Of a stretch of 64,000 nucleotides of DNA, positions 45,012 through 64,000 are shown one piece after another. This DNA is from an uncultured Alphaproteobacteria bacterium. Its GTDB lineage: Bacteria > Pseudomonadota > Alphaproteobacteria > HIMB59 > GCA-002718135. The stretch is taken from contig CACHLW010000003.1 of NCBI GenBank assembly GCA_902580765.1, positions 8,168 through 72,167 on the forward strand, given 5' to 3'. Within the stretch, counting starts at the first letter, position 1, and every line of letters begins with the position of its first letter. Below the pieces are notes generated by a model, which was given only the letters and a program-made list of their open reading frames with translations, was not told the DNA's origin and searched no databases. The position numbers and the translations under genes were made by a program.

Positions 45012-45027
45012 TTAAGAAAGGATAAAG

Positions 45028-46527: not shown

Positions 46528-46539
46528 ATCTAAATCATA

Positions 46540-47907: not shown

Positions 47908-47938
47908 TAATTTTTTTTTTCGTATTAATCTAATTTTT

Positions 47939-49447
47939 ATGAAAACGGTTTTCCTTTTGTTTGATTCATTAAATAAAAGAATGTTAAATTCTTATGGTGG
48001 TAAATATATTGAAACACCAAATTTTAACCGATTAGCAGAAAAATCAGTTCAATTTAATAATCATTATATTGGAAGTATGCCATGTATGCCTGCAAGACGT
48101 GATATGCATTCAGGACGATTAAGTTTTTTGCACCGTGCATGGGGTCCCTTAGAACCATTTGATAATTCATTTCCAGAAATCTTAAGACTTAATAATACAT
48201 ATACTCATCTTGTGACTGATCATTATCATTACTTCGAAGATGGTGGCGCAACGTATCATAATAGATTTAATTCTTGGGATTTTATTAGAGGACAAGAGAG
48301 TGACCCATGGAAAGCTATGGTTCAACCGCCTCTTGAAAAACTGAGAGAAAAATATCATCAATCTCAATTAAATCTAACTGATAGGGAAACAGGTTATTAT
48401 CGTTATGCAATCAATAGTGAGTTTATTAAAGAAGAAAAAGATTTTCCTTCCGTCAAATGCTTTCAATCTGGATTAGATTTTATTAATATCAATAAAGATG
48501 CAGATAACTGGTTCCTTCAATTGGAAACTTTTGATCCCCATGAACCTTTCTTTGCACCTGAGCGCTTTAGAGAAAAATTAAAAACTAATTACAAAGGTCC
48601 AAGATTAGACTGGCCTCAATATGACCGGGTTAAAGAAACGGATGATGAAGTTGCCGAATTAAAAGCTAATTACATTGCTCTAATTGGTTTATGTGATTAC
48701 TTGCTTGGCACTGTCTTAGATTATTTTGATGAAAATAATTTATGGGATGACACCGCATTGATTTTAACTACTGACCATGGTTTCATGCTCGGTGAACATG
48801 ATTGGTGGGCTAAAAATAGAATGCCTTTGTATAATGAAATTGCAAACATACCTTTTTATTTTTATCACCCTGAATACAAACAATACTCAGGCAAGCAAAG
48901 AAATGTTGTAACGCAAAATATTGATTTAATGCCAACATTCATGACAATGCATGGTCACAATCTTCCTAAAGAGGTTAAAGGTAAATCTATATTAAACTTT
49001 CTGGACAAAGACAGTGAAAATGAGCATTTTGCTTTGTATGGATATTGGGGCGGAGGAATAAATATATCCGATGGAAATTATACATATTTTCATTTCCCAG
49101 AAAATTTTGATCAATATGACAGAAGTAGATTTCAATATACATTGATGCCAACTAATATGAGGCAATTTTTTTCATACGAAGAGTTACAAACTGCAACTAT
49201 GCATGAACCTTTTGATTTTACGAAAAACATACCAGTAATGAAAGTAAACAAAATTCTTAGAAAAACTGATCCTCATAAATCTTTGGTAGATACTGAAAGT
49301 GCACTCTATGATTTAAAAAAAGATCCAGGTCAATTAAGTCCACTTAATGATATTTCTTTAATGACAAAATATAAAAATATTATGTTGGAAGAAATTAAAA
49401 ATTACGATCCTCCAGAAGAACTATTAAAAAATTATTTTAATATATAA
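47939..49447 (+). CDS. Cys-type sulfatase (S1 family), no signal peptide
   Basis: 502 aa. LLFDSLN, CMPARRDMHSGR (Cys codon at 48083) and TTDHGF. No leader. Confidence 0.8.
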   Translation: MKTVFLLFDSLNKRMLNSYGGKYIETPNFNRLAEKSVQFNNHYIGSMPCMPARRDMHSGRLSFLHRAWGPLEPFDNSFPEILRLNNTYTHLVTDHYHYFEDGGATYHNRFNSWDFIRGQESDPWKAMVQPPLEKLREKYHQSQLNLTDRETGYYRYAINSEFIKEEKDFPSVKCFQSGLDFININKDADNWFLQLETFDPHEPFFAPERFREKLKTNYKGPRLDWPQYDRVKETDDEVAELKANYIALIGLCDYLLGTVLDYFDENNLWDDTALILTTDHGFMLGEHDWWAKNRMPLYNEIANIPFYFYHPEYKQYSGKQRNVVTQNIDLMPTFMTMHGHNLPKEVKGKSILNFLDKDSENEHFALYGYWGGGINISDGNYTYFHFPENFDQYDRSRFQYTLMPTNMRQFFSYEELQTATMHEPFDFTKNIPVMKVNKILRKTDPHKSLVDTESALYDLKKDPGQLSPLNDISLMTKYKNIMLEEIKNYDPPEELLKNYFNI

Positions 49448-49450
49448 GTT

Positions 49451-51511
49451 TTAATATTCTAAAACTATTGCTTCATGTATTTGGAATTTATCAATTTTAA
49501 TATTTATTACCTTAGTATCATTAATCTCAATTTTCTTATCTATATTTAAAATAAATATTTTTTTTATTTTCTTCTCTAAATTAATAGAAAGTTCAACATT
49601 ATGAATTTCAGGAACATCTTCAATTATTAAACATCTTCCTCTTTGTAATGGAGGAGCATACAAGAGATGAACAACATATCGATTTTTACTTTCTTGATGA
49701 AGCAATGTTATTCTCCCAGAACTTGGCAGACCCTTAGTTTCGATTAATAGATTTTTGTTTAAGTGCCTAATTGTATTTCCAAATAGCTGACGATGAACTT
49801 TTGATCCATTTTCTGCATAAATCCTATCTAAATCATGAGCAAAAAAAACTGTGTTCTTATATTGTAGTACAGCCGGATAATTTTCTTTATCAAGTTTGTT
49901 TGGTGCATATAAGTGTCCATTATATTTTTCTAACGTTCGACTAAAATATGGAACTTTAATATCTGCCAGAATATTACTATCCTCAAAAACTTCTGATTTA
50001 ATACCTGGCAAATAAGTTATAAAGGGAGAGGAAACTAAATTATTTGATAACTCTTTCCTTACTTGTACATAATCCATATCATAATCAGAGGGTCCAATAT
50101 ATTTTGCTCCAACATCAAATATAAATTTATCCTTTTTATTATTAAGTGCTCCTTTCCCAATCACAACTAACGTTCCGCCTTTATTCTGAAAATCTTTGAG
50201 TTTATTTATCTCTTCTTCTGATAGAGTATTTGATGATGGGATAATGATTAATTCAAACTCGTTAATTCTTTCTTGAGAAGCGTTAATACTTACGACTTCG
50301 TATTCAATATGCTCTTCCAATAACATTCTAGCAACACCATCATCTGCATTGTAAGAACCTGTCAAATAAAGAGCAACATTTGAAAAAGGTTTGCCACCAA
50401 TTCCATAATCTTCAATTTTTTTTATATATTCAAAAGCAACACCGACGTTTTTATATGTATCCAAATCCATTTCTCCACTTGGATGAAGATGATCACCAAA
50501 ATTACATCGTGCACCGTGGGAGATCATAGCAGCTGCTTCGTATTTTAGTGCTTCAGGATATTTAAAACCTCCAAATTCTCCCCATGAAGTATGAAATTTA
50601 CCACTCATACCAATGATAGGTTTATTTGCATAATTATGAAAATATCTAGATTGAGTAGCTATCTTGTCATAACCACCCCAAGTTGTTGGTAAATCTTCTA
50701 AATCATTTTTAGTTGAGTTTTCGTGAACGCGGTAAAGTAAATTTTCTTTTCTCTCAAGAACAGTTAAACCATTATAAAATATACTTGCATCTAGTTTCAA
50801 AGACTGAATATGAGTAGTCATATTTTTAGTAAAATTTTTTAAAATAATTTCATTCCAATGAGCATTTACTTCTTCAGGATTATTAATATCATATCCAGTT
50901 TCCTTCATAGATTGCTTACAATTATCACAGTAACATTTTAGTTTTGTAAAATGTATATCAAAGAAATAACCATCTACTTGATAATTTGAACACAATTCAG
51001 TTACCATATTTGAAATTAATTCTTCATAATATCCTGTAGGACACATAAATTTCCAATTTCCATAGGGTTTAAAATTTTTATCTTTATATCGTATTTCTTT
51101 ATCACTATGCTGACCAGTGCTAGTAATCTCTTCAATTCCATTTCCTAATTTTTTATTGTGTTCAATTATACTGCCATCTATGTTTCTTGCGCACCACTCT
51201 GGATGAATTTCTGCATCATGTGCTGACCATCCAACTGTTAAATATATTGGTGCTTTTACATTAATTTCGTGACAAGCTTCAATTTGTTGACCAAGTAAAT
51301 CAAAATTTAAATTTGGATGAATTTTCGCATGCTTTACTTTTGTTGGATAATAACACCAACTATGATGACATTTTCCAAAAATATTAATTTGATTAATATG
51401 TCCAATTTGTAGAGCTTCTTTAAATTGTTCTTTTGAAAAATATTTTCCAACATCAGGGATATGCTCTGAAGTGTGAAAATCTAAATGTATTTGCCTTGAT
51501 GGTTCATTCAT
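49451..51511 (-). CDS. Leaderless GH42-like/GHL6-like putative glycoside hydrolase with trimerisation-type middle domain
   Basis: 686 aa. N-terminal IHLDFHTSEH TIM-barrel start. The Cys cluster MCPTG...KCYCDNC resembles the Zn site of GH42 beta-galactosidases. The family call is from memory of motif patterns only. Confidence 0.5.
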   Translation of the reverse strand: MNEPSRQIHLDFHTSEHIPDVGKYFSKEQFKEALQIGHINQINIFGKCHHSWCYYPTKVKHAKIHPNLNFDLLGQQIEACHEINVKAPIYLTVGWSAHDAEIHPEWCARNIDGSIIEHNKKLGNGIEEITSTGQHSDKEIRYKDKNFKPYGNWKFMCPTGYYEELISNMVTELCSNYQVDGYFFDIHFTKLKCYCDNCKQSMKETGYDINNPEEVNAHWNEIILKNFTKNMTTHIQSLKLDASIFYNGLTVLERKENLLYRVHENSTKNDLEDLPTTWGGYDKIATQSRYFHNYANKPIIGMSGKFHTSWGEFGGFKYPEALKYEAAAMISHGARCNFGDHLHPSGEMDLDTYKNVGVAFEYIKKIEDYGIGGKPFSNVALYLTGSYNADDGVARMLLEEHIEYEVVSINASQERINEFELIIIPSSNTLSEEEINKLKDFQNKGGTLVVIGKGALNNKKDKFIFDVGAKYIGPSDYDMDYVQVRKELSNNLVSSPFITYLPGIKSEVFEDSNILADIKVPYFSRTLEKYNGHLYAPNKLDKENYPAVLQYKNTVFFAHDLDRIYAENGSKVHRQLFGNTIRHLNKNLLIETKGLPSSGRITLLHQESKNRYVVHLLYAPPLQRGRCLIIEDVPEIHNVELSINLEKKIKKIFILNIDKKIEINDTKVINIKIDKFQIHEAIVLEY

Positions 51512-54759: not shown

Positions 54760-55038
54760 ATGGCCAAAAGACAAAAAGTTTTAGTTCTCTATTTAAAGTT
54801 ACCAAGCTTAGAAGGAGAAGTAATTTCTTGGGCAACCTTTGATGGCACAGGAAAAAAACTGCATATGACAGGTGATAGTGATGAGCCTCCTTATCCTACA
54901 GGTTTGGATGCCTTGTTAGATGGCTGGAGATTATTCCAAGCAAGTCAAGCCATTCCAGAACATCCAGGTCAAGAATTCAGAACATCGTATTTAAAGCATG
55001 AATTTTTTTTTGAAAAATTAGAAGAAGGAGATTTTTAA
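54760..55038 (+). CDS. Small (92 aa) soluble protein of unknown function
   Basis: Track ORF 54646-55038 trimmed to the ATG 5 nt after the permease stop (MAKRQKVLVLYLKLPSLEGE...). Gly/Pro/Glu/Trp-rich composition, atypical for non-coding AT-rich DNA. Tightly packed (1 nt) before the PhyH-like gene. Confidence 0.5.
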   Translation: MAKRQKVLVLYLKLPSLEGEVISWATFDGTGKKLHMTGDSDEPPYPTGLDALLDGWRLFQASQAIPEHPGQEFRTSYLKHEFFFEKLEEGDF

Positions 55039-55039
55039 T

Positions 55040-55960
55040 ATGGCTAAGTTATTGACAACAGAACAAATGGCTGAATTTGCAAATAGTGGATGTTTATTTT
55101 TTGATGAGTTAATCGATCAACAAACTAATCAGGAATTTTTAGATGATATTGGTCATACAGACATTGATGAAGTTGATAGTGTACAGGATTATTATAGAAA
55201 TATAAAAGCAACTAGCAGTATTCCAAGAATACCAGCAGGAACAAAACTTAAAGATGCTTATCCAAAAGGCTCCCCTTTAGAAAAAATTTTTTCACATGAA
55301 GTTGTCGATGGTGCTATTAAAAGTTTAGTCGGTAGTAACACAATCATTGATCACCAGTTTCTTCATATAACGTTTCCTACCAAATATTTTAAACAAGCAA
55401 ATCAACGCCAGATGTCTCAACAAAATCATCAAGATAGTACAATTGATCCAAGAAGTACTTTTGATGTACAATTATTTTATTTTCCAACAGAGGTAACAAA
55501 AGCAATGGGAGGAACAAGATATCACCCTGGTACGCATTTACGTATTGTTAATGAATTTGGAATTGCAAAATACCAAAATATTTTAGGCCAAAAGAGTATA
55601 GTATGTAAACCTGGTACAATTGGTATTTTTCATAGTGGATTATGGCATGGAGCAGGTGTAAATTTTTCAGAAAATATTCGCTATATGTTTAAAGTGAGGC
55701 TTCAACCCACAGAGAAACAGGAATTACTATGGGATCCTGAAAAAAAATATCAACCTTTGCCAAACCGCGCTCTTTATTGGACTGATGAAAGAAAAGATAA
55801 AACAATAAATGATATTTTAATGAGATCCTATCCTTGGCAAGAAGCAGATACAAATAGATTGGATAAAATAAACGTTGTTAAGTTTTGGAGATTATTGACC
55901 GGTCATAAAAAAATGGATGTTGATTATTGGCTTACTCGGATTGAAAACGAACTATATTAG
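55040..55960 (+). CDS. PhyH-like Fe(II)/2-oxoglutarate dioxygenase (paralog 2, divergent)
   Basis: 306 aa. N-terminal LTTEQMAEFANSGCLFFDELI, NHQDS (H-x-D) and a distal GLWHGAG His. Confidence 0.6.
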   Translation: MAKLLTTEQMAEFANSGCLFFDELIDQQTNQEFLDDIGHTDIDEVDSVQDYYRNIKATSSIPRIPAGTKLKDAYPKGSPLEKIFSHEVVDGAIKSLVGSNTIIDHQFLHITFPTKYFKQANQRQMSQQNHQDSTIDPRSTFDVQLFYFPTEVTKAMGGTRYHPGTHLRIVNEFGIAKYQNILGQKSIVCKPGTIGIFHSGLWHGAGVNFSENIRYMFKVRLQPTEKQELLWDPEKKYQPLPNRALYWTDERKDKTINDILMRSYPWQEADTNRLDKINVVKFWRLLTGHKKMDVDYWLTRIENELY

Positions 55961-57466
55961 TTAAAAATTTCTTTCATCACCTTTTAATGGAACAACATCA
56001 CAAGTTTCTTGGTACCAAGAAAGCATTTTTTCTTTCAAGTTTTTAAGCTCTGATGCATATTGCTGATCATCAATAACATTATTTATCTCTCCTGGATCAT
56101 CAATTAAGTTATAAAGTTCATCTCTTTCGTATGCTCTTTTTATATATTTAAATTTCTTATTTCTGCACATAGTGGCTTTAGTGTGCATCAAAATTTCATC
56201 TTCTTTACCTTGTAAGCTTACTCTTGGGTAATATAAGCCATGAGGTAAATTTAAACTTTGACTTTCACTTGCTTGTCTCTCTAATCTAAGTCTGCCACCT
56301 TCAGTAAATACTTCTTCTCTATGATTATCAGTTTTCTGTTCAATAAAATTTTTTATACTTTTGCCAAAATGCCAATATGAAGGATCGATATTACTGTAAT
56401 CATATATGGTTCCAGCGATATCAATTAACTCAATCATTGTATCACTTACACCATTTAATGTATTTTCACTTTTTGGCGGCTTAATAATAAGAGGAACATT
56501 CGTAAGACAATCTTGAAAAGTATTTTGCGTTTTTTCAACTAAATTATAATCACCTGTAAAGTCACCATGATCAGATAAAAAAATTATTAAAGTATCATCA
56601 TATAAATTATTATCTTTAAGTTGATTGACCAGAAGTCCAAATTGATAATCTACCCTTGCACACATACCAAGATATACCGCTCTTAATTCATTCCAGCGTT
56701 CATCAGTCCAATCTTGCATTCTTTGTCCATCCATTATTCCTTTTAAAAGACTTGGCTTGTCTTCCCAAGTTTTATATTGATATCTATTAGGTATTACGCT
56801 TCGATCAATTGAAGAGAACCATGGATCCTCTACACAGTAAGGAGGATGCGGATAACCAAGTGGTAGAAATAAACAGAATGGTTTATCTTCTTTATAATCT
56901 TTTACAAAATCTAATGCTCCATAAACCATGGACCAATCGTCATCGAAATAAATATCTTTATCTTTTTTATCTAATTTTCCTTTGAAGAAACTATAATAAT
57001 TATCTCCATCTTCAGGCCCTCGCCATAATAGATCTCCCCCATGTGTGCCTGGTTGTTGAGTATAGCCCCATTTTTGATAATCACTATCCGTTGGTTCAAA
57101 GTAAATATCACAATGATTACGGTATCCTTCTTGACCTGCTATTAAATCATTTTTTCCACCCCACCAAATAAAGTAATCTTTATCTTTTAGTTCTGATAAA
57201 ATACTAGAGTCACCTTGATCTGTATGTAACATATAATGCATTGTTCTATGACCATGAACATGTGGATACCAACCAGTCATAAATGAACACCGACTTGGTG
57301 TACAAACTGTTGCTTGGCAAAAAGCATTCTTAAATGCAATTGCATCTTCTTTAATAATATTATCTAAGTTAGGAGTTTGTGCACCAGGATACCCTAGATA
57401 TCCCAGCATATCTCCTCTCCACTGATCAGGGTTAAAAATAACAATATTTGGTTTTTTCTGGATCAT
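55961..57466 (-). CDS. Cys-type sulfatase (S1 family), no signal peptide
   Basis: 501 aa. IFNPDQWRGD, CTPSRCSFMTG (Cys codon 57304-57302) and LSDHGD. No leader. Its stop abuts the stop of 55040-55960 with a 0-nt gap. Confidence 0.85.
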   Translation of the reverse strand: MIQKKPNIVIFNPDQWRGDMLGYLGYPGAQTPNLDNIIKEDAIAFKNAFCQATVCTPSRCSFMTGWYPHVHGHRTMHYMLHTDQGDSSILSELKDKDYFIWWGGKNDLIAGQEGYRNHCDIYFEPTDSDYQKWGYTQQPGTHGGDLLWRGPEDGDNYYSFFKGKLDKKDKDIYFDDDWSMVYGALDFVKDYKEDKPFCLFLPLGYPHPPYCVEDPWFSSIDRSVIPNRYQYKTWEDKPSLLKGIMDGQRMQDWTDERWNELRAVYLGMCARVDYQFGLLVNQLKDNNLYDDTLIIFLSDHGDFTGDYNLVEKTQNTFQDCLTNVPLIIKPPKSENTLNGVSDTMIELIDIAGTIYDYSNIDPSYWHFGKSIKNFIEQKTDNHREEVFTEGGRLRLERQASESQSLNLPHGLYYPRVSLQGKEDEILMHTKATMCRNKKFKYIKRAYERDELYNLIDDPGEINNVIDDQQYASELKNLKEKMLSWYQETCDVVPLKGDERNF

Positions 57467-57546: not shown

Positions 57547-58797
57547 ATGAGATTAATAAAATTATTTTTAAGTGTCATTTTTTTGTTAGGAATATCATTT
57601 AATGCCAATGCAGTAACAATCAAATGGCTTGGATTGGCACAAGATGACTCTGCGCATAAAGAAGACATCGATGCAGCAATTGCTGATTGGGAAGCAAAAA
57701 CTGGCCATGAAGTTAAGTGGCAGTATATGGCTGGTCCAGACTTAAAACTGAAATTACCTACAATGTTACAAAGTGACGATGCTCCTCATTTATTTTATAG
57801 TTGGGGTGGAGGAGTTATGTTTGATCAAGCAGATGCTGGATTTTTACAAGACATTTCTGCTATGGTTCCAGATAGTTATTTAGAAAATTTAAGTCCTGCA
57901 GCAGCAGACGCTTTTACATACAAAGGTGAAAGAGTTGGTCTTCCAAATTTATTTAACCAAGTAGTATTTTGGTACAATAAAGATTTAACTGAAAAAGCAG
58001 GAGTAGATCCCTCAAAGGTTGTTATGTGGAACGATCTTTTAGAAGTAGTAAAAGATATAAAAGATGCTGGAATAACACCAATTTGTGTTGGTGGTAAAAA
58101 TAAATGGCCTATTCATTTCTATTGGACACTACTCCATGTAAGAAACGGAGGCAAAGCAGCTTTCTTTGACGCTTTAGAAAATGGCGGATGGGATAGAGAA
58201 GAATACATTAAATCTGGATATGAATTCCAACAGCTTGTTGACCTTGAACCTTTTCAAGATGGTTTCATGGCAGTTGAATATGGTGATGCTTCAGCAGCAT
58301 TTGGTAACGGAGAATGTGCACTTCACCTAATGGGAAGTTGGGATTACAATGGTGCTAAAAGAAGAAGTACTTCTGGGGAAGGAATTCCTGATGATAGAAT
58401 GGGAACATTCCAATTTCCAATGACAGAAAATGGAAAAGGAAATCCTTCAGATACACTTGGTGGAATTAATGGATGGTTAGTTTCTAAAAATGCACCAAAA
58501 GAAGCAGTTGATTTCTTAATGCATTATATTTCAATGAAATATCAATCAATGGGAGCAAAAAGTGGAGCGTATATGCCTATTTACAAAGGAGCTGAAACAG
58601 AAATGGGTAACAGATTCTTTAAGCAACAGGCGCTTAACGTTGCAAACTCAACCTTCCATTCTATTTTCTGGGATCAATATCTCGGAAGAGATATTGGTGA
58701 GGTTGTAAATGATGTTTCAGTTGAACTAGCAACTAAAGACATCACTCCAGAAGAAGCTTGTCAAAGAGTACAAGAGGCTTGGGAGTTTAATCAATAA
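57547..58797 (+). CDS. CUT1-type substrate-binding protein (Sec signal)
   Basis: 416 aa. Signal ends ISFNANA-VTIK. SD GGGAGGA. SBP_bac_1-like. Confidence 0.8.
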   Translation: MRLIKLFLSVIFLLGISFNANAVTIKWLGLAQDDSAHKEDIDAAIADWEAKTGHEVKWQYMAGPDLKLKLPTMLQSDDAPHLFYSWGGGVMFDQADAGFLQDISAMVPDSYLENLSPAAADAFTYKGERVGLPNLFNQVVFWYNKDLTEKAGVDPSKVVMWNDLLEVVKDIKDAGITPICVGGKNKWPIHFYWTLLHVRNGGKAAFFDALENGGWDREEYIKSGYEFQQLVDLEPFQDGFMAVEYGDASAAFGNGECALHLMGSWDYNGAKRRSTSGEGIPDDRMGTFQFPMTENGKGNPSDTLGGINGWLVSKNAPKEAVDFLMHYISMKYQSMGAKSGAYMPIYKGAETEMGNRFFKQQALNVANSTFHSIFWDQYLGRDIGEVVNDVSVELATKDITPEEACQRVQEAWEFNQ

Positions 58798-58806
58798 ATA
58801 TTAAAT

Positions 58807-58832
58807 AGAGGGGCAAATAATTTTGCCCCTCT
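58807..58832 (+). terminator. Intra-operon hairpin after SBP gene
   Basis: agaggggcaaa-taat-tttgcccctct forms a perfect 11-bp GC-rich stem. The T-run lies about 13 nt downstream. Confidence 0.55.
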
Positions 58833-58853
58833 GTATAAAAGTTATTTTTTTGA

Positions 58854-59750
58854 ATGATAAAGAAAAACATCACATCTGCATTTGTTGAAAAATATTCCAC
58901 AATAATAATTTTTTTAGTTCCAGCATTAACTTTATTTACTGTTTTCGTTGTTATGCCAATTTTTGAAGCAGCTTATTTTAGTTTTTATCGATGGAACGGA
59001 ATGGGAGCACCAGAAAAATATGTTGGATTTAAAAATTACGCTTTTTTATTTAAGAACGGTATTTTTTTAAATGCTCTGAAAAATAATTTTTGGATTATAT
59101 TTGTTTCACTTTTTATTCAATTACCTTTTGCATTATTTCTCGCACTTTTTTTAGCCAATAATTTTAGAGGAGCTGCTGTTTTTAGAAGTTTGTTTTTTTT
59201 ACCATATATTTTAGCAGAAATTGTTGCGAGTTTGATTTGGGTTTATATTTATAAAGGAGATTATGGATTAGTTGGTGCTATTTGGGGTTTGTTTGGAGCT
59301 GACGCACCTTGGATTACTGCAGACAAAGAGTGGGCATTGACCGCCATACTAATAGTTGTTGTTTGGAAATATTTTGGAATACATATGATGATTATGATCT
59401 CAGGTCTTCAAGGAATATCAAAAGAAGTAATAGAGGCTGCAAAAATTGATGGAGCCGGTCCAGTAACTACTGCTTTAAGAATTAAAATACCAATTTTATG
59501 GCCAACAATTACTTTATCTATTTTCCTTTCTACGCTTGGAAGTTTACAACTATTTGATTTAATTATGCCTCTAACAATGGGAGGTCCATCAAATGTTACT
59601 CACTCAATGGTTACTTACTTGTATGATTTTGGTGTTGGAAGAATGAGACTTGGTTTTGGAAGTGCTATTAGTGTAGTAATTTTTATAATTTGTTTTGTCG
59701 TTGCTTTAATTTATCAAACAACAATTTTAAAAGATAAAGGATATAACTAA
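58854..59750 (+). CDS. CUT1 ABC permease (MalF-like)
   Basis: 298 aa. EAA loop EAAKIDGAGPVTTALRIKIP. Confidence 0.85.
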   Translation: MIKKNITSAFVEKYSTIIIFLVPALTLFTVFVVMPIFEAAYFSFYRWNGMGAPEKYVGFKNYAFLFKNGIFLNALKNNFWIIFVSLFIQLPFALFLALFLANNFRGAAVFRSLFFLPYILAEIVASLIWVYIYKGDYGLVGAIWGLFGADAPWITADKEWALTAILIVVVWKYFGIHMMIMISGLQGISKEVIEAAKIDGAGPVTTALRIKIPILWPTITLSIFLSTLGSLQLFDLIMPLTMGGPSNVTHSMVTYLYDFGVGRMRLGFGSAISVVIFIICFVVALIYQTTILKDKGYN

Positions 59751-60574
59751 TGCAATCAAAATTATCAAAATTTTATATGTACCTTTTCTTATCTTTTTTA
59801 GCAGGAATAATTTTAGTACCTTTATACTTAACTTTTATAAGTAGCTTTAAAACATTAGGTGATTTAAGTTCAAATGTCATTGGATTACCAAGAGAGTGGA
59901 TTTTTTCAAATTATACAGATGTTTTTGGTATGGAATATTTTTGGTCATTTGCCTGGAATTCACTTGTATATGGAGTCTTAACGACAGTGTTAACTTTAAT
60001 TTGTGCATCTATGGCAGCATTTGTATTCGCTCATATTAGATTTTTTGGAAATAGATTTTTATTTAATTATTTGTTGATTGGATTAATGTTTCCTTTTGCT
60101 TCAGCAATCATTCCTTTATTTCTAAAGGTAAGAGATTTTGGATTACTTGGAACTTATTGGGCAGTTGTTTTACCTCAAATCGCTTTTGGTCTTGGATTTG
60201 CTATTTTACTTTTTAGAGGTTTTTTCAAACAAATACCGCCGGAATTATTTGATGCTGCATACGTTGATGGTTGTAATTATTCAAATTTCTTTTTCCGAAT
60301 AACGATCCCACTATCTGTTCCAATATTTTCTACTGTGGCAGTTGTAACTTTTGTAACAAGCTGGAATAATTATCTACTTCCATTAATTATGGTTAGTAAT
60401 GAGGAGTTATACCCTTGGCCTATGGGTATAATGTTTTTTAGAGGTGAGTATGACACAGATTGGTCAATGGTTCTAACTTACGTTTCTTTAACATTAATAC
60501 CTGCGATAGTATTTTTTCTCTTAGCTCAAAAATACATCATTGCTGGACTTACTGGTGGAGCAGTAAAAGAGTAA
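59750..60574 (+). CDS. CUT1 ABC permease (MalG-like)
   Basis: 274 aa. EAA-like loop DAAYVDGCNYSNFFFRITIP. TAATG overlap. Confidence 0.85.
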   Translation: MQSKLSKFYMYLFLSFLAGIILVPLYLTFISSFKTLGDLSSNVIGLPREWIFSNYTDVFGMEYFWSFAWNSLVYGVLTTVLTLICASMAAFVFAHIRFFGNRFLFNYLLIGLMFPFASAIIPLFLKVRDFGLLGTYWAVVLPQIAFGLGFAILLFRGFFKQIPPELFDAAYVDGCNYSNFFFRITIPLSVPIFSTVAVVTFVTSWNNYLLPLIMVSNEELYPWPMGIMFFRGEYDTDWSMVLTYVSLTLIPAIVFFLLAQKYIIAGLTGGAVKE

Positions 60575-61287
60575 TGCTGAAAGAAAATGAAGTAAAATTC
60601 TATAATCAAAATGGTTATTTAATTTTAAAGGATAAATTGGACAAGAAGACATTGTCAGATTTGAAAAATTCAACAACTCAACTGATAGAGGAGTTTAAAA
60701 AAAATCAATCAACTTTTATAAGAGATAAAAATAGAAATATATCTAAGCATGGTAAAATGTTTTTATCCAATCGTTGTGAAGATTTTCCTCTGATGGAAAA
60801 ATTCACTAAAGGTAATTTTGTTAAATCTATTTGTAGGTCAATTTTAGGTGAAAAAATTTACTTATTTAATGAACAGGTAGTTAATAAGGAGCCACAAACT
60901 GAAAGTAAATTTGCGTGGCATCAAGATTCTGGTTATGTAGGCCATGATCATAAGGCATATCTATCTATTTGGATTGCCTTATGTGACACAAATGAAAATA
61001 ATGGAGCATTAAGAATATTGCCAATAAATCTAGAAAGAGAAGCTAAAATTGAAGAACATGTTTGGTCCGAACAATCATCAGATTTAAGTATGAAAGTTCA
61101 GGAAGAGAAGTCAATTTCGTGTACAATTGAGGAAGGTGGATTAGTTTTATTTTCTAGTAGAACACCCCATGCTTCTTTTCCAAATAAATCAAACAAAAAC
61201 AGACCAGCATATTTATGCCAATACTCATCTGAGCCAATTATACCTCCGCCTGGTTCAAATAAAAAATTTAGAGCAGAGTTAATTTAA
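60574..61287 (+). CDS. PhyH-family Fe(II)/2-oxoglutarate dioxygenase (paralog 3)
   Basis: Start set at the TAATG overlap (MLKENEVKFYNQNGYLILKD). AWHQDSGY (H-x-D) and a distal RTPHAS His. Confidence 0.7.
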   Translation: MLKENEVKFYNQNGYLILKDKLDKKTLSDLKNSTTQLIEEFKKNQSTFIRDKNRNISKHGKMFLSNRCEDFPLMEKFTKGNFVKSICRSILGEKIYLFNEQVVNKEPQTESKFAWHQDSGYVGHDHKAYLSIWIALCDTNENNGALRILPINLEREAKIEEHVWSEQSSDLSMKVQEEKSISCTIEEGGLVLFSSRTPHASFPNKSNKNRPAYLCQYSSEPIIPPPGSNKKFRAELI

Positions 61288-62429
61288 TGAAAGTTGGGAT
61301 TGTAGGATGTGGAAATATAGCAGATATATATTTTAAAAATTCTCAAAAATATTTTAATAATTTTGACATCATTGCATGTGCAGATATTAATGAAGATGCT
61401 TCTGTTCATTATTCAAAACTTTATGGAGTGGAAAATTTATCAGTGGATAAATTATTAAATCATAGTGAAATAGAATTAATTATTAATTTAACAATTCCTG
61501 ACGTCCACTTTGAAGTCTCGCAATCAATTCTTCAAGCTGGAAAGCATTCATACTCTGAAAAACCTCTTTCAATTGAATTTAACCACGGAAAGCAATTGTT
61601 AGATTTATCGAAAGAGAAAAATTTGTATTTAGGTTGTGCGCCCGATACATTTCTGGGGGCAGGTATTCAAGAATCAAAGAAAATTTTAGAAAATAATATA
61701 ATTGGAAATATTAATATGGGTAGTATTGCGATGGGTGTTGCGGGTCACGAAATATGGCATCCTAATCCAGATTTTTATTATAAGTATGGTGGAGGACCAG
61801 TATTGGATATGGGTCCTTACTATTTTACAGCATTAGTCAACTTATTAGGTCCTGCAAAATCTGTCTATTCTCAATCTAGAACAGTTTATAATAAAAGAAT
61901 TATAGGAAGTGGTAGCAGAAAAGATGAAGAAGTAATTGTAGATATTCCAACAACTCTAGTTTCTCAAATTGAGTTTGACAATGGCGCGCTTATAGACTCT
62001 TTTTTCTCTTTTGATACATGGAAACATAATAAAAACCATATTGAGCTTTATGGAGATAAAGGATCAATAAATATTCCAGATCCTAATACTTTTGGTGGTT
62101 CAATAAATATTTGTACATCAAAAAATGGAGAATGGGAAACTATAGCAACTGATAAAAATAATTTAGGAAAGATCAATATCCATAATAGTAAAAAAACAAA
62201 TGAAAATCCTGGCATTGCCAATTATAGAGGAATTGGTGTTAGTGAGATGGTTGATTCTATAAATAACAAAAGATTAAACAGGTGTAGTGGTGAATTAAGT
62301 TTACATGTTTTAGATATATTAGATACAATTATTAAATCTTCTGAAAATGATAAAAAATTACAATTAAGAAGCTCTATCAATGAAGTTAGTTATTTTGGTG
62401 AGGATGAAATAAGTAAATTATTAAACTGA
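61287..62429 (+). CDS. Gfo/Idh/MocA family oxidoreductase (ThuB-like position)
   Basis: 380 aa. VGIVGCGNIADIY Rossmann motif, SEKP and GGGPVLDMGPYYFTALVNLLGP. Paralog of 33654-34805. TAATG overlap with the PhyH gene. Confidence 0.75.
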   Translation: MKVGIVGCGNIADIYFKNSQKYFNNFDIIACADINEDASVHYSKLYGVENLSVDKLLNHSEIELIINLTIPDVHFEVSQSILQAGKHSYSEKPLSIEFNHGKQLLDLSKEKNLYLGCAPDTFLGAGIQESKKILENNIIGNINMGSIAMGVAGHEIWHPNPDFYYKYGGGPVLDMGPYYFTALVNLLGPAKSVYSQSRTVYNKRIIGSGSRKDEEVIVDIPTTLVSQIEFDNGALIDSFFSFDTWKHNKNHIELYGDKGSINIPDPNTFGGSINICTSKNGEWETIATDKNNLGKINIHNSKKTNENPGIANYRGIGVSEMVDSINNKRLNRCSGELSLHVLDILDTIIKSSENDKKLQLRSSINEVSYFGEDEISKLLN

Positions 62430-62440
62430 AAGGAAAATGA

Positions 62441-63154
62441 ATGAAAAAAGCTCTTATAGTTTATGGTGGTTGGCCTGGCCATGAGCCAGAGAAATGTACT
62501 GAAATAATTAAAGGTATGCTTGAGCCTGAAGGATACGAAGTTAGAGCTGAATATCAAACTTCAGCATTTGCACAGGATTATGTTCACGAAATGGATTTGT
62601 TAATACCCATAGTCACCATGGCTTTTCATTTTGATCCTCGAGGAGAAATAAAAAAAACTGCTGTTAACAATGTTATCAAAGCTGTTCATAATGGTTGTGG
62701 CCTTGCCGGTCACCACGGTGGAATGTGTGATGCATTTAGACAGTCAATTGATTGGCAGTTTTTAACAGGAGGTCAATGGGTAAGTCACCCAAATGGTATT
62801 CATGATTATAAAGTAAATATAACAAAAAAAGATGATCCAATTATGGAAGGTATTGAAGATTTTGATTATCATTCAGAGCAATATTATATGCATGTTGATC
62901 CATTAAATGAAGTTTTGGCAACTACAACTTTTAAAGGTAATGAAGTTTGGAAGCTTGAACAAGAACCTGGTTCATCAAGTGGTGACGCATATACAACAGA
63001 ATGGTTAAAAGGTGTAGAAATGCCAGTTGCTTGGAAAAGACGAATTGGGAAAGGAAAAATTTTTTATATCTCTCTTGGTCATTTTGCACATGAATTAAAC
63101 CATCCACAAATGAACAAAATTTATAAACGTGGTTTACTTTGGGCATCAAGATAG
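62441..63154 (+). CDS. ThuA-like (trehalose-utilisation, class I glutamine-amidotransferase-like fold) protein
   Basis: 237 aa. N-terminal KKALIVYGGWPGHEPEK and C-terminal FYISLGH resemble ThuA-domain proteins. Confidence 0.6.
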   Translation: MKKALIVYGGWPGHEPEKCTEIIKGMLEPEGYEVRAEYQTSAFAQDYVHEMDLLIPIVTMAFHFDPRGEIKKTAVNNVIKAVHNGCGLAGHHGGMCDAFRQSIDWQFLTGGQWVSHPNGIHDYKVNITKKDDPIMEGIEDFDYHSEQYYMHVDPLNEVLATTTFKGNEVWKLEQEPGSSSGDAYTTEWLKGVEMPVAWKRRIGKGKIFYISLGHFAHELNHPQMNKIYKRGLLWASR

Positions 63155-63177: not shown

Positions 63178-64000
63178 ATGACTGAATACTTTAGTAAAAT
63201 ACCAGAGATTAAATTTGAGGGCGAAGAAAGCACAAATGCGTTTGCTTTTAAGTTTTACGATGAAAATAAAAAAGTTTTAGGCAAGTCTATGAAAGAACAT
63301 TTAAGGTTTGCTACTTGTTATTGGCATACATTTACTTGGCCTGGCTTGGATCCATTTGGTGGTCAAACATTTGATAGACCGTGGATGCAAGCAGGTGATG
63401 AAATGAAAATGGCTGAAATGAAACTTGATGCTGCATTTGATTTTTTCACTAAAATAAAAACACCTTTTTTCTGCTTTCACGATAGAGATATTTCACCTGA
63501 AGGTTCAAATTATGCTGAGACACAAAAAAATTTCTTTCATATTATAGATTTAATGGAACAAAAAATTAATGACTCAGGAATGAAATTACTTTGGGGAACA
63601 GCAAATGCTTTTTCTCATAAAAGATATATGAGTGGTGCTTCTACTAATCCAGACCCAGAAGTTTTTGCATATAAAGCTGCACAAGTAAAAGATTGTATGG
63701 ATGCAACGATGAGATTGGGCGGTCAAAACTACGTTCTTTGGGGTGGAAGAGAAGGATACGAAACTATTCTGAATACTGATATGACTAAGGAAACAGCTAA
63801 TCTTCAAAGATTTTTAGAATTAGTTGTTAATTATAAACACAAGATAGGATTTAAAGGTCAAATTTTATTGGAACCAAAACCTCATGAACCAACTAAACAT
63901 CAATATGACTTTGATTCTGCAACTTGCTTAGCGTTTTTACGAAAGGCAGGTTTAGAAAATGAGATTAAACTAAATGTTGAAGTTAATCATGCAACTTTGT
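63178..64000 (+). CDS. xylA: Xylose isomerase (N-terminal about 274 aa; runs off the window end)
   Basis: Hand translation gives [52 protein letters not shown]...LLWGTANAF...[18 protein letters not shown]...[17 protein letters not shown]...[10 protein letters not shown], collinear with E. coli XylA. Absent from the ORF track because it is truncated. Confidence 0.85.

What the first reader, a model, noticed from the sequence alone, without database searches (positions are those of the whole stretch)
60574..63154. Translationally coupled PhyH dioxygenase - Gfo/Idh/MocA oxidoreductase - ThuA-like triad at the end of a CUT1 sugar importer operon
Seen: the order is permease, then PhyH (TAATG overlap at 60574), then oxidoreductase (TAATG overlap at 61287), then a ThuA-like gene (11-nt gap), then xylA.

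Established: ThuA/ThuB pairs (ThuB being Gfo/Idh/MocA) oxidise a glycoside to its 3-keto form. AtsK of Pseudomonas putida shows that an Fe(II)/2-oxoglutarate dioxygenase can release sulfate from an ester by hydroxylating the ester carbon.

Inference: a PhyH-type enzyme could hydroxylate the C-H of a secondary sugar sulfate, which would collapse to a keto-sugar plus sulfate. The adjacent oxidoreductase and ThuA pair could then process the keto-sugar. This would be an oxygenolytic sugar-desulfation route complementary to the hydrolytic sulfatases next door. I am not aware of a described PhyH-family member with this role.
Basis: inference. Interest (0 to 1): 0.7.

Follow-up and report, generated by a model that had tools for sequence, protein, structure and literature searches.

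The report
Sugar-operon iron oxygenase linked to sulfosugars
A marine bacterium has inserted an iron/2-oxoglutarate oxygenase into an old xylose-oligosaccharide import operon, and relatives of this enzyme sit beside sulfatases and sulfosugar genes in several phyla, so it may remove sulfur groups from sugars using oxygen; this has not been tested.

Summary
Three results change the picture.

- **Transporter.** Its binding protein is a close homologue (326 bits) of XylC, the beta-1,3-xylo-oligosaccharide binding protein of Vibrio sp. EA2. All four residues essential for binding are conserved. Xylose isomerase follows the triad, and in relatives xylulokinase does too.
- **Core module.** Transporter, Gfo/Idh/MocA oxidoreductase and ThuA form an old module. 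Rhizobial megaplasmids carry it with no PhyH and no sulfatase, so PhyH is a marine addition.
- **PhyH clade.** PhyH belongs to a distinct clade of about 200 clusters (50% identity) with a conserved active-site signature. Members usually sit next to a keto-reductase-type enzyme (Gfo, SDR or SmoB-like AKR). They recur beside sulfatases in Chloroflexota, Trueperaceae and pelagic Alphaproteobacteria. They also sit inside sulfoquinovose monooxygenase (SmoC/SmoB) clusters of sphingomonads and Rhodobacterales.

This fits an [quoted passage not shown] logic acting on sulfated or sulfonated sugars.

Against it, 73%-identical triads lack a nearby sulfatase. Only about a fifth of clade clusters have sulfur-related neighbours. 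PhyH-family genes also occur in sulfatase-free beta-1,3-xylan loci. The reaction itself remains untested.

The parts
55961..57466 (-). Cytoplasmic Cys-type (CTPSR) formylglycine sulfatase, transcribed divergently from the binding-protein gene
   Evidence: Pfam Sulfatase 119 bits. CxPxR motif and no signal peptide. The same divergent position is kept in L092, L099 and L102. Nearest solved relatives are promiscuous alphaproteobacterial sulfatases/phosphonate monoester hydrolases and an exo-2S-iota-carrageenan sulfatase.
57547..58797 (+). Solute-binding protein of a CUT1 ABC importer; close homologue of XylC, the beta-1,3-xylo-oligosaccharide binding protein
   Evidence: phmmer against PDB 8XBA/8XBB/8XBC: E 2.8e-96, 326 bits, full length. 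W91, W191, W271 and D382 of XylC are conserved. The identity of those PDB entries and the essential residues come from PMC12125979.
58807..58832 (.). Palindromic G+C-rich hairpin (11-bp stem) between the binding-protein gene and the first permease gene
   Evidence: This is a typical position for a hairpin that stabilises the mRNA and raises binding-protein output (inference).
58854..59750 (+). ABC permease 1
   Evidence: Pfam BPD_transp_1. 49% identical to the permease of the rhizobial module.
59750..60574 (+). ABC permease 2; its stop overlaps the PhyH start
   Evidence: Pfam BPD_transp_1. 57% identical to the rhizobial permease. TAATG junction.
60574..61287 (+). Fe(II)/2-oxoglutarate oxygenase of the PhyH family, member of a distinct clade (signature NEQ, WHQDSGY, H126, H162, FSS, QYS.E)
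   Evidence: Pfam PF05721 96.8 bits. Invariant residues. AF2 model pLDDT 88.9. Foldseek and PDB profile hits are to PhyH-type enzymes. About 202 clusters (50% identity) at E<=1e-30.
61287..62429 (+). Gfo/Idh/MocA NAD(P)-dependent sugar oxidoreductase, paralogue of the gene at 33654-34805 (46% identity)
   Evidence: Pfam. Nearest solved or curated relatives are the C-glycoside 3-oxidase DgpA, IolG, levoglucosan dehydrogenase and sugar 3-ketoreductase, all below family cut-offs. 38% identical to the rhizobial partner of ThuA. Paralogy.
62441..63154 (+). ThuA-domain protein (class I glutamine-amidotransferase-like fold)
   Evidence: Pfam PF06283 145 bits. 51-54% identical to ThuA-domain proteins that follow a Gfo gene on rhizobial megaplasmids. 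No solved relative by sequence.
63178..64000 (+). Xylose isomerase xylA (5' part; runs off the window)
   Evidence: Translation and Pfam AP_endonuc_2. The full-length gene at this position in L001 has the XylA2_C domain. In L107 an FGGY kinase (xylulokinase type) lies between ThuA and xylA.

Best explanation
The operon 57547-63154 plus xylA is a cytoplasmic route that turns an imported, probably sulfated, xylose oligomer or xyloside into xylose for xylose isomerase.

**Shown**
- The binding protein is a close XylC homologue.
- Transporter, Gfo oxidoreductase and ThuA form an old module that exists without PhyH in rhizobia.
- PhyH has a complete Fe(II)/2-oxoglutarate site and belongs to a coherent clade.

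**Inferred**
- The Gfo-ThuA pair does NAD-dependent oxidation of a sugar hydroxyl. Precedents are ThuAB 3-keto-glycoside formation and the GH109/GH188 oxidise-eliminate-hydrate-reduce glycosidases, which share the Gfo fold. This takes the place of a xylosidase, which the operon lacks.
- PhyH is the marine addition. It hydroxylates the sugar carbon that carries a sulfur substituent, most likely a sulfate ester. The gem-hydroxy ester collapses to an oxo-sugar plus sulfate.
- A nicotinamide-dependent reductase (the Gfo enzyme here, a SmoB-like AKR or an SDR elsewhere) restores the alcohol.
- This would work alongside the cytoplasmic hydrolytic sulfatase encoded next to the transporter.
For: **Xylose side**
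- XylC homology with all four essential binding residues conserved.
- xylA, or xylB-xylA, directly follows the triad in every close relative with enough sequence: window, L001, L099, L107.

**Module history**
- The rhizobial module is CUT1 + ROK regulator + Gfo + ThuA. Identities to the window are 37-39% (binding protein), 49% and 57% (permeases), 38% (Gfo) and 51-53% (ThuA). It has no PhyH and no glycoside hydrolase.
- Gfo-fold enzymes can act as NAD-dependent glycosidases (PMC10755693).
- ThuAB forms 3-keto-disaccharides (PMC8121099).

**Triad conservation**
- PhyH, Gfo and ThuA stay together in three different gene orders at 45-50% PhyH identity: L089-91 and L010; L008-L012; and the window type.

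**Reductase pairing**
- Gfo lies within 2 kb in 11 of 80 loci from at least five lineages, including Caldilineaceae, where the order is permease-permease-PhyH-Gfo.
- SDR-PhyH in L049.
- SmoB-like AKR in L056, L057, L096, L097.

**Sulfur link**
- A sulfatase lies within 500 bp in 21 of 80 loci and within 10 kb in 27 of 80.
- Sulfatase + CUT1 + Gfo + ThuA surround the 45%-identity PhyH.
- Sphingobium cluster: SmoB-like AKR - SmoC-like monooxygenase (369 bits to PDB 7OH2) - PhyH - MFS - sulfatase - TonB receptor, with a sulfate exporter nearby.
- TRAP (anion) transporters sit directly upstream of PhyH in seven loci.
- The clade signature residues, including two invariant histidines not needed for Fe or 2OG binding, are conserved across all these contexts. 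They are absent from the two other PhyH genes in the window.

**Chemical precedents**
- AtsK and Rv3406 alkyl-sulfate dioxygenases (PMC3675115, PMC5066984).
- SqoD plus the reductase SquF (PMC10507154).
- KanJ dioxygenase plus the KanK reductase acting on a sugar ring carbon (reference cited in PMC4700567).
Against: - There is no biochemical evidence for any member of the clade.
- The clade is not related to AtsK, TauD or SqoD beyond the general fold.
- Triads with 73% PhyH identity (L107, L108) have an EamA transporter upstream. No sulfatase is in the fetched DNA, including 10 kb upstream in L108.
- At the level of 80%-identity clusters, only 10 of 45 have a sulfur-related neighbour and 22 of 45 have none of the scored neighbours. 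The 21 sulfatase-adjacent loci fall into 4 clusters and are mostly one Chloroflexota lineage.
- PhyH-family genes occur in seven published beta-1,3-xylan loci that list no sulfatase. Whether they belong to this clade was not tested.
- A hydrolytic sulfatase is already present, so an oxygenolytic route looks redundant unless the two differ in position specificity.
- These genomes are rich in Gfo genes (four in this window), so some Gfo adjacency could be background.
Confidence: 0.35

Rival explanations
1. PhyH acts on the xylose glycan itself, not on a sulfur group. Options include oxidative cleavage of a glycosidic or ether bond, where hydroxylation next to the bridging oxygen gives an oxo-sugar or lactone. 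Another option is removal or hydroxylation of another decoration such as an O-methyl group. In this reading PhyH is part of a non-hydrolytic xylo-oligosaccharide pathway with Gfo and ThuA.
For: - XylC-like binding protein and xylA/xylB adjacency.
- No xylosidase in the operon.
- Triads without a nearby sulfatase in L107 and L108.
- The 50%-identity relative lies in an MFS - GH2 - PhyH arrangement with GH51 and no sulfatase within the 15 kb of contig available.
- Seven published beta-1,3-xylan loci (Flammeovirga, Aquimarina) carry dehydrogenase - GH2-like - PhyH and no sulfatase.
- The closest solved relative by sequence, EvdO2, oxidises sugar C-H bonds next to glycosidic oxygens in oligosaccharide antibiotics (its function is from my own knowledge).
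Against: - This does not explain the recurrent sulfatase adjacency, the SmoC/SmoB clusters or the TRAP transporters.
- The rhizobial module works without PhyH, so PhyH is not needed for the basic oligosaccharide route.
- Clade membership of the Bacteroidota PhyH genes is untested. None appeared among the best 80 genome hits.
Confidence: 0.3
2. PhyH is a sulfonate (C-S) dioxygenase for sulfoquinovose or a related sulfosugar. It would be a PhyH-family counterpart of the TauD-family SqoD, giving 6-oxo-glucose and sulfite. The oxo-sugar is then reduced, and the glucose is isomerised by XylA, which also accepts glucose.
For: - PhyH sits inside SmoC/SmoB clusters in Sphingobium, Novosphingobium, Mameliella and a Paracoccaceae MAG.
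- SqoD plus SquF is a precedent.
Against: - In the window the binding protein is XylC-like. The sulfoquinovosyl-glycerol binding protein was not among its 60 best PDB matches.
- The neighbours are sulfate-ester hydrolases, not sulfite exporters or dehydrogenases.
- In the SmoC clusters the function would duplicate SmoC.
Confidence: 0.1
3. PhyH has a role unrelated to the sugar imported by this operon, for example hydroxylation of an amino acid, osmolyte or lipid. Its position is then an accident of a gene-dense sugar island in a streamlined genome that carries many PhyH genes.
For: - There are three PhyH-family genes in 64 kb, each at the end of a sugar ABC operon.
- The best structural matches include amino-acid and ectoine hydroxylases.
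- 22 of 45 clade clusters show none of the scored neighbours.
Against: - The start and stop codons overlap on both sides.
- The position is conserved at 73-100% identity, and PhyH, Gfo and ThuA stay together after rearrangement at 45-50%.
- Nearly all annotated neighbours across phyla are sugar transporters, sugar kinases, glycosidases or sugar oxidoreductases.
Confidence: 0.12
4. PhyH is a KanJ-like oxidative deaminase that converts an amino sugar carbon to a ketone, which the Gfo enzyme then reduces.
For: - KanJ/KanK is a precedent for a dioxygenase-plus-reductase pair acting on a sugar ring.
- A GHL6/GlmA-like putative glycosidase lies 9 kb upstream.
Against: - KanJ was not among the sequence or profile hits to solved structures.
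- No amino-sugar genes (deacetylase, deaminase, kinase) are in the operon.
- This does not explain the sulfatase, SmoC or TRAP contexts.
Confidence: 0.05
5. PhyH matures the neighbouring sulfatases by oxidising the active-site cysteine to formylglycine. It would then be a third type of formylglycine-generating enzyme.
For: - No FGE or radical-SAM maturase gene is among the window ORFs of 150 aa or more.
- Chloroflexota show a one-to-one sulfatase-PhyH pairing.
- All the sulfatases are Cys-type.
Against: - Many clade members have no sulfatase within 10 kb but do have a reductase, a TRAP or CUT1 transporter, or a sugar kinase.
- Pairing with a reductase makes no sense for a protein-modifying enzyme.
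- The nearest solved relatives act on small molecules.
Confidence: 0.03

Closest known systems
XylCDEF beta-1,3-xylo-oligosaccharide ABC importer of the Vibrio sp. EA2 xul locus (Sun et al., ISME J 2025, PMC12125979)
   Same: The binding protein matches XylC (PDB 8XBA/B/C) over its full length at 326 bits, with W91, W191, W271 and D382 conserved. Two CUT1 permeases are present, and xylose isomerase is in the same locus.
   Different: - The window has no GH26 xylanase and no GH3 or GH43 xylosidase.
- No ATPase gene is in the operon.
- PhyH, Gfo and ThuA stand where the Vibrio locus has hydrolases.
- A cytoplasmic sulfatase is encoded next to the binding-protein gene.
- Ligand specificity (1,3 versus 1,4 linkage, sulfated or not) is untested.
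ThuAB of the thuEFGKAB operon (Sinorhizobium/Agrobacterium), forming 3-keto-disaccharides
   Same: A CUT1 importer is followed by a ThuA-domain protein and a Gfo/Idh/MocA oxidoreductase.
   Different: - The gene order is Gfo then ThuA.
- The binding protein is XylC-like rather than trehalose/sucrose type.
- The true orthologues in rhizobia (51-54% for ThuA) sit in a different cluster with a ROK regulator.
- Identity to S. meliloti ThuA/ThuB was not measured.
Fe(II)/2-oxoglutarate sulfate-ester dioxygenases AtsK (Pseudomonas putida) and Rv3406 (SulfAtlas family S2)
   Same: This is the chemistry proposed for PhyH: hydroxylation of the ester carbon, then collapse to a carbonyl plus sulfate. The Sphingobium cluster, like the P. 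putida ats/sft region (my own knowledge), combines the oxygenase with a TonB-dependent receptor and sulfur-scavenging genes.
   Different: - AtsK and Rv3406 belong to the TauD family (PF02668) and act on alkyl sulfates.
- The window protein is PhyH family (PF05721).
- No AtsK or TauD chain appears in sequence or profile searches of solved structures.
SqoD + SquF (sulfo-ASDO) and SmoC + SmoB (sulfo-ASMO) pathways for sulfoquinovose
   Same: An oxygenase removes the sulfur group from a sugar to give an oxo-sugar, and a nicotinamide-dependent reductase regenerates the sugar. Clade members lie inside SmoC/SmoB clusters.
   Different: - SqoD is TauD family and SmoC is a flavin-dependent luciferase-like monooxygenase.
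- Both cleave a C-S bond at C6 of glucose.
- The window operon has no SmoC or SmoB and points to xylose.
KanJ/KanK of kanamycin biosynthesis; EvdO2, SnoK and SnoN
   Same: These are 2-oxoglutarate oxygenases that abstract hydrogen from sugar ring carbons. KanJ gives a keto-sugar that KanK reduces. EvdO2 and SnoK are among the closest solved relatives (profile E 1e-18 and 3e-16).
   Different: - They are biosynthetic enzymes acting on antibiotic-bound sugars in actinomycetes.
- Sequence identity is about 20%.
- KanJ itself was not detected by sequence.
GH109 and GH188 (SqgA) NAD-dependent glycosidases
   Same: They have a Gfo/Idh/MocA-like fold and cleave glycosides by transient C3 oxidation. 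This offers a way for the Gfo enzyme to replace the missing xylosidase.
   Different: No SqgA or GH109 chain was among the PDB sequence hits of the window oxidoreductase. The catalytic residues were not compared.

Membership tests
PhyH family of Fe(II)/2-oxoglutarate oxygenases (Pfam PF05721) | Profile match above the curated cut-off | tested here: met
   96.8 bits against a cut-off of 22, covering profile positions 1-213.
PhyH family of Fe(II)/2-oxoglutarate oxygenases (Pfam PF05721) | HxD...H iron triad and the 2-oxoglutarate-binding Arg, Lys, Trp and Ser of human PhyH | tested here: met
   H116, D118, H199, R210, K105 and W133 are invariant and S201 nearly invariant in 66 sequences. In the HMMER alignment H116, W133, K105 and H199 stand opposite H, W, K and H of human PhyH; the human residue numbers (H175, D177, H264, R275, K120, W193, S266) are from my own knowledge.
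PhyH family of Fe(II)/2-oxoglutarate oxygenases (Pfam PF05721) | Double-stranded beta-helix fold resembling solved PhyH-type enzymes | tested here: met
   AF2 model pLDDT 88.9. Foldseek TM 0.70-0.78 to proline hydroxylase H11, MysH, EvdO2, GriE, SnoK/SnoN, EctD and PHYHD1.
Type II sulfatases (SulfAtlas S2; AtsK, Rv3406) | Membership of the TauD/TfdA family (PF02668) | tested here: not met
   No PF02668 hit. No AtsK or TauD chain in phmmer or profile searches of PDB up to E = 10.
Type II sulfatases (SulfAtlas S2; AtsK, Rv3406) | 2-Oxoglutarate-dependent release of sulfate from a sulfate ester | not testable with these tools
   This needs an enzyme assay.
ThuAB glycoside 3-dehydrogenase (thuEFGKAB) | A ThuA-domain protein encoded next to a Gfo/Idh/MocA oxidoreductase and after a CUT1 importer | tested here: met
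ThuAB glycoside 3-dehydrogenase (thuEFGKAB) | Orthology to S. meliloti / A. tumefaciens ThuA and ThuB, and to the ThuE binding protein | tested here: inconclusive
   The best rhizobial matches (51-54% for ThuA) lie in a ROK - Gfo - ThuA cluster whose gene order differs from thuEFGKAB. The binding protein is XylC-like. The named ThuA/ThuB sequences were not compared.
ThuAB glycoside 3-dehydrogenase (thuEFGKAB) | Formation of a 3-keto-glycoside | not testable with these tools
   This needs an enzyme assay.
XylCDEF-type xylo-oligosaccharide importer | Binding protein homologous to XylC with the four residues whose mutation abolishes binding | tested here: met
   326 bits. W91, W191, W271 and D382 are conserved.
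XylCDEF-type xylo-oligosaccharide importer | The other 12 pocket residues that give the L-shaped, 1,3-selective site | not tested
   The paper text retrieved here did not list these residues.
Sulfo-ASMO / sulfo-ASDO sulfoquinovose clusters | Presence of SmoC/SquD or SqoD together with SmoB/SquF | tested here: not met
   No homologue of the Sphingobium or Novosphingobium SmoC-like or SmoB-like genes was found in the window at E<=1e-8. They are present next to clade members in L056, L057, L096 and L097 only.

The most novel reading that the evidence does not exclude
The PhyH clade defined by the NEQ / WHQDSGY / H126 / H162 / FSS / QYS.E signature is a new, oxygen-dependent family of sugar desulfurising enzymes, with sulfate-ester and perhaps sulfonate dioxygenase activity. 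It would be unrelated to AtsK, TauD and SqoD, would work with interchangeable keto-reductases (Gfo, SDR, AKR), and has spread by horizontal transfer among marine, sponge-associated and soil bacteria of at least five phyla. If so, it adds a non-hydrolytic, formylglycine-independent route for removing sulfate from algal glycans inside the cell. It would also assign a function to the unassigned PhyH gene in Rhodobacterales and sphingomonad sulfoquinovose clusters.
Probability: 0.3. Interest if true: 0.8.

Novelty: new variant of a known kind. Interest (0 to 1): 0.62.

Why it matters
Sulfated algal glycans and sulfoquinovose are large carbon and sulfur pools in the ocean. Their desulfation is currently attributed almost entirely to formylglycine sulfatases. 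Sulfoquinovose cleavage is attributed to SmoC or SqoD.

- **If the enzyme family is real.** A PhyH-type oxygenase that removes sulfur groups from sugars would be a fifth kind of sulfatase-like enzyme. It would explain an unassigned conserved gene in published sulfoquinovose clusters. It would also show that streamlined pelagic Alphaproteobacteria import sulfated oligosaccharides and finish them in the cytoplasm with oxygen-dependent chemistry.
- **If the sulfur link is wrong.** The locus still shows a xylo-oligosaccharide route without a xylosidase, built on a Gfo-ThuA pair shared with rhizobia. PhyH/dehydrogenase modules also sit unexplained in published beta-1,3-xylan loci.
- **Testability.** Several clade members are in cultured, tractable strains (Mameliella sediminis, Sphingobium yanoikuyae, Novosphingobium, Paraburkholderia), so the question can be tested directly.

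Tried and rejected
1. **PhyH as a formylglycine maturase.** Considered because the window has five Cys-type sulfatases and no FGE or anSME gene. Rejected because the clade pairs with reductases and transporters in many loci without sulfatases.
2. **A shared unknown partner.** I tested whether the roughly 500-aa genes without Pfam hits next to PhyH in Chloroflexota (L002, L087) and in L089 are homologous. They are not.
3. **SqoD as a PhyH enzyme.** The paper shows it is TauD family.
4. **Literature.** Searches for PhyH with sulfatase, ThuA or polysaccharide utilisation, for AtsK-type desulfation of polysaccharides, and for ThuA/ThuB found no description of such an enzyme. The Roseobacter sulfoquinovose paper (PMC9938184) is not held, so I could not check whether the PhyH gene is induced by sulfoquinovose.
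6. **Promoter and terminator scan of 55-64 kb.** It gave fewer sites than shuffled sequence and is uninformative in this 32% G+C DNA, apart from one hairpin.
7. **Search of plasmid records with PhyH.** It did not reach Flammeovirga or Aquimarina, so clade membership of the PhyH genes in beta-1,3-xylan loci stays open.
8. **NCBIfam.** It gives only sub-threshold hits for PhyH (ectoine hydroxylase, chlorinating enzyme, methylphosphonate hydroxylase) and none for ThuA.

Full report
**1. The observation**

The window (32% G+C) is 98% identical at the PhyH protein to a contig of the single-cell genome AG-892-A10, an uncultured marine alphaproteobacterium.

- Binding protein, 57547-58797.
- Permeases, 58854-59750 and 59750-60574.
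- PhyH, 60574-61287, with TAATG overlaps at both ends.
- Gfo/Idh/MocA oxidoreductase, 61287-62429.
- An 11-nt gap with an AGGA motif, then ThuA, 62441-63154.
- A 23-nt gap, then xylA from 63178.

Pfam assigns all of them well above the curated cut-offs. The window also holds five Cys-type sulfatases without signal peptides. One (55961-57466) is transcribed divergently from the binding-protein gene, and four lie in tandem at 43470-49447. No ABC ATPase is in the operon; a MalK-type ATPase lies at 16080-17288.

**2. What the transporter says**

The binding protein matches PDB 8XBA/8XBB/8XBC at E = 2.8e-96 (326 bits) over its whole length. These entries are XylC, the binding protein of the beta-1,3-xylo-oligosaccharide importer XylCDEF of Vibrio sp. 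EA2 (PMC12125979).

In XylC, mutation of any of four residues (Trp91, Trp191, Trp271, Asp382) abolishes binding. All four are conserved in the window protein (read from the alignment). The next best matches are beta-1,4-xylo-oligosaccharide binding proteins.

With xylA directly downstream, the imported molecule is most likely a xylose oligomer or xyloside. Unlike the Vibrio locus, the operon has no GH3 or GH43 xylosidase.

**3. The Gfo-ThuA pair and the transporter are an old unit**

The window ThuA is 51-54% identical to ThuA-domain proteins on rhizobial megaplasmids. In Rhizobium tumorigenes and Sinorhizobium sp. B11 these lie in a cluster made of:
- a CUT1 binding protein, two permeases and UgpC, transcribed divergently;
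- then a ROK regulator, Gfo/Idh/MocA and ThuA.

Every component is the best match of its window counterpart: binding protein 37-39%, permeases 49% and 57%, Gfo 38%, ThuA 51-53%. These clusters contain no PhyH, no sulfatase and no glycoside hydrolase.

So the Gfo-ThuA pair is not merely a helper of PhyH. It is the resident catabolic machinery of this importer, and PhyH was added in the marine lineage.

Several precedents suggest what the pair could do:
- ThuAB forms 3-keto-disaccharides (PMC8121099).
- Gfo-fold proteins of GH109 and GH188 cleave glycosides through transient C3 oxidation (PMC10755693).
- The nearest solved relatives of the window oxidoreductase are the C-glycoside 3-oxidase DgpA, inositol dehydrogenases and a sugar 3-ketoreductase.

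**4. PhyH itself**

An alignment of 66 homologues shows an intact iron triad (H116, D118, H199) and the 2-oxoglutarate-binding residues of human PhyH (R210, K105, W133, S201). The AlphaFold model is confident (pLDDT 88.9).

By fold and by profile, the closest solved proteins are human PhyH, EvdO2, SnoK/SnoN, proline hydroxylase H11, MysH, GriE and EctD. AtsK and TauD do not appear. Several of these relatives abstract hydrogen from sugar ring carbons (EvdO2, SnoK, SnoN; my own knowledge).

The protein belongs to a coherent clade:
- It comprises about 202 clusters at 50% identity at E<=1e-30, out of 14,651 PhyH-like clusters at E<=0.001.
- Its signature is N99-E100-Q101, F113, W115, S119, Y121, H126, W133, H162, S194-S195, Q216-Y217 and E220.
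- Most of these positions are unchanged, and the rest vary in only one or two members, in Alphaproteobacteria, Chloroflexota, Trueperaceae, sphingomonads and Rhodobacterales.
- Most of it is missing from the two other PhyH genes of the window, at 55040-55960 and 37661-38608.

**5. Neighbourhoods of close relatives**

*PhyH 73-100% identical*
- L001, L007, L092, L099 and L102 keep the order binding protein - permeases - PhyH - Gfo (- ThuA - xylA).
- Wherever upstream sequence exists, the divergent sulfatase is also kept (L092, L099, L102).
- L107 and L108 (73%) have instead EamA transporter - PhyH - Gfo - ThuA - FGGY kinase - xylA - ribF - ileS.
- L108 has no sulfatase in the 10 kb upstream.
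- So the triad and its link to xylose genes are the constant part. The XylC-type importer and the sulfatase are variable.

*PhyH 45-50% identical*

The three families stay together in other orders:
- Gfo (minus strand) | PhyH | Gfo-ThuA-MFS (minus strand), with CUT1 - sulfatase - unknown - Gfo upstream (L089-91, L010, L012).
- PhyH - PanB-like - CUT1 | Gfo-ThuA (L008-L012).

The ThuA and Gfo genes there are only family-level relatives of the window genes.

**6. Neighbourhoods across the clade**

I scored the 80 best loci from one genome per species. The numbers of loci with each neighbour are:

| Neighbour | Loci (of 80) |
|---|---|
| Sulfatase within 500 bp | 21 |
| Sulfatase within 10 kb | 27 |
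| Gfo gene within 2 kb | 11 |
| TRAP transporter within 2.5 kb | 7 |

- The Gfo-adjacent loci include Caldilineaceae (permease-permease-PhyH-Gfo), Geminicoccaceae and Betaproteobacteria.
- Most sulfatase-adjacent loci are one conserved divergent pair in Anaerolineae-type Chloroflexota. Trueperaceae, Gemmatimonadota and unclassified genomes add independent cases.

Collapsing to 45 clusters at 80% identity gives these counts:
- 10 clusters have a sulfur-related neighbour (4 of them a directly adjacent sulfatase).
- 8 have a nearby Gfo.
- 5 have a TRAP transporter.
- 11 have a CUT1 transporter.
- 22 have none of these.

Sampling the unexplained loci gave more sugar-related neighbours:
- SDR - PhyH - enolase-type dehydratase.
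- AraC | PhyH - GH29 fucosidase.
- AraC | PhyH | a CitMHS / sodium:sulfate-symporter-type transporter.
- FGGY kinase | PhyH.

**7. The sulfoquinovose connection**

*Sphingomonads.* Two plasmid records carry clade members (30-33% identity to the window protein).
- In Sphingobium yanoikuyae pKN1 the order is aldo-keto reductase - luciferase-like monooxygenase - PhyH - MFS - sulfatase - TonB receptor. A sulfate exporter and serine acetyltransferase are nearby.
- In Novosphingobium the order is PhyH - AKR - monooxygenase.
- The Sphingobium monooxygenase matches SmoC (PDB 7OH2/7OLF) at 369 bits, and its AKR matches SmoB (7BBY-7BC1) at 161 bits.
- These are the sulfoquinovose monooxygenase and the 6-oxo-glucose reductase of the sulfo-ASMO pathway.

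*Rhodobacterales.* Mameliella sediminis and a Paracoccaceae genome have Gfo (minus strand) | SmoC-like - SmoB-like - TRAP - PhyH - MauG-like.

Neither of the two sulfoquinovose papers I searched for the term mentions a PhyH gene in these clusters.

**8. Putting it together**

The most economical reading of points 4-7 is this. The clade makes a carbonyl on a sugar, which a nicotinamide-dependent reductase then reduces. That would explain why the partner is a Gfo, an SDR or an AKR depending on lineage. It is the logic of three known pairs:
- KanJ/KanK.
- SqoD/SquF.
- SmoC/SmoB.

The leaving group is not shown. Three observations point to a sulfur-containing anion: the sulfatase neighbours, the SmoC/SmoB clusters and the anion-type transporters. 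AtsK and Rv3406 show that the chemistry works for sulfate esters.

In the window this gives a model with four steps:
1. A sulfated xylose oligomer is imported.
2. It is desulfated hydrolytically by the sulfatase, and oxygenolytically by PhyH at positions the sulfatase cannot serve.
3. It is cleaved by the Gfo-ThuA redox pair.
4. The xylose goes to XylA.

Only the identities of the parts and their conservation are shown. Every catalytic step is inference. I put 0.35 on this specific reading.

**9. What argues against it**

- L107 and L108 lack a nearby sulfatase.
- Four-fifths of clade clusters show no sulfur gene within 10 kb.
- The 50%-identity relatives in L004-L006 sit in an MFS - GH2 - PhyH arrangement with GH51 and no sulfatase within the 15 kb of contig available.
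- Table S8 of Sun et al. lists PhyH-family genes in seven beta-1,3-xylan loci (Flammeovirga, Aquimarina). They always lie next to a dehydrogenase, with a GH2-like gene or an unannotated gene between them, and no sulfatase is listed. Whether those genes carry the clade signature could not be tested.

The main rival (0.3) is therefore that PhyH acts on the xylose glycan itself, by oxidative cleavage next to a glycosidic oxygen or by removal of another decoration. Smaller rivals are a sulfonate dioxygenase, an unrelated function, KanJ-like deamination and sulfatase maturation.

**10. Novelty and verdict**

- The substrate skeleton is probably xylose-based.
- The Gfo-ThuA pair has its own older role.
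- The enzyme is not an AtsK relative.

I found no description of this clade or of a PhyH-type sugar desulfurising enzyme. If confirmed, it would be a new variant of a known kind of chemistry in a new family. Cultured hosts are available for testing.

Noticed in passing
window 37661-39606: A third PhyH-family gene (37661-38608, Pfam 105 bits, a different clade) ends a CUT2 sugar ABC operon and is followed by a fatty-acid-desaturase-family membrane di-iron gene (38623-39606). That desaturase-like gene is 48% identical to the one transcribed divergently from the PhyH-clade gene in L008 and L012. So a PhyH/desaturase-like pairing recurs with different PhyH clades.
   Followed up: partly
window 54760-55960: A second PhyH-family gene (55040-55960, 306 aa, weak Pfam match of 42.6 bits, unrelated clade) follows the second CUT1 operon. 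A 92-aa ORF with no Pfam hit (54760-55038) precedes it, ending two bases before its start. The PhyH gene converges on the sulfatase at 55961-57466. The same arrangement is present in L007.
   Followed up: partly
window 40127-49447: A CUT1 importer whose binding protein has a weak, sub-threshold match to the TAT signal profile (21.6 bits against a cut-off of 22.7) is followed by four tandem Cys-type sulfatases without signal peptides. This implies import of sulfated oligosaccharides and cytoplasmic desulfation in a pelagic alphaproteobacterium.
   Followed up: partly
window 49451-51511 (minus strand): A 686-aa GHL6 / GlmA-like putative glycosidase with a weak ThuA-like middle domain. It is similar in size to the unassigned 678-aa HypA of the Vibrio EA2 beta-1,3-xylan locus. 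Homology was not tested.
   Followed up: no
L056, L057, L096, L097: Sulfoquinovose monooxygenase (SmoC/SmoB-type) clusters of Mameliella, a Paracoccaceae MAG, Sphingobium and Novosphingobium contain a conserved PhyH gene. The two sulfoquinovose papers searched for the term do not mention it.
   Followed up: partly
Table S8 of PMC12125979 (Flammeovirga pacifica, F. sp. MY04, F. yaeyamensis, Aquimarina latercula, A. spongiae and others): Seven published beta-1,3-xylan utilisation loci list a PhyH-family dioxygenase next to a dehydrogenase, with a GH2-like or unannotated gene between them. One Colwellia locus lists 'Type 1 glutamine amidotransferase + predicted dehydrogenase + MFS'. The Vibrio XY-214 locus has gatA and alrA. 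None of these genes is assigned a role in the paper.
   Followed up: partly
L015-L059 (genome loci): Single-linkage clustering at 60% identity joins 47 PhyH genes from Chloroflexota, Trueperaceae and other or unclassified bacteria, many from sponge or marine metagenomes. This suggests recent horizontal spread of the gene.
   Followed up: no
L108 1-8599: In a relative, a CUT2 sugar ABC operon is followed by another PhyH gene, a Gfo gene 72% identical to the window gene at 33654-34805, and a Gig2-like (PF07350) protein with a weak PhyH match. Several oxygenase-family genes thus cluster in sugar loci of these bacteria.
   Followed up: no
window 58807-58832: A perfect 11-bp G+C-rich palindromic hairpin lies in the 56-nt spacer between the binding-protein gene and the first permease gene. 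It stands out in 32% G+C DNA.
   Followed up: no
window 26808-37658: Upstream is an inositol-catabolism-like region. It has an IolD-like TPP enzyme at 27859-29718, two 2-hydroxyacid dehydrogenases, a Gfo gene at 33654-34805, and ribose-type (CUT2) ABC transporter genes with three binding-protein genes.
   Followed up: no
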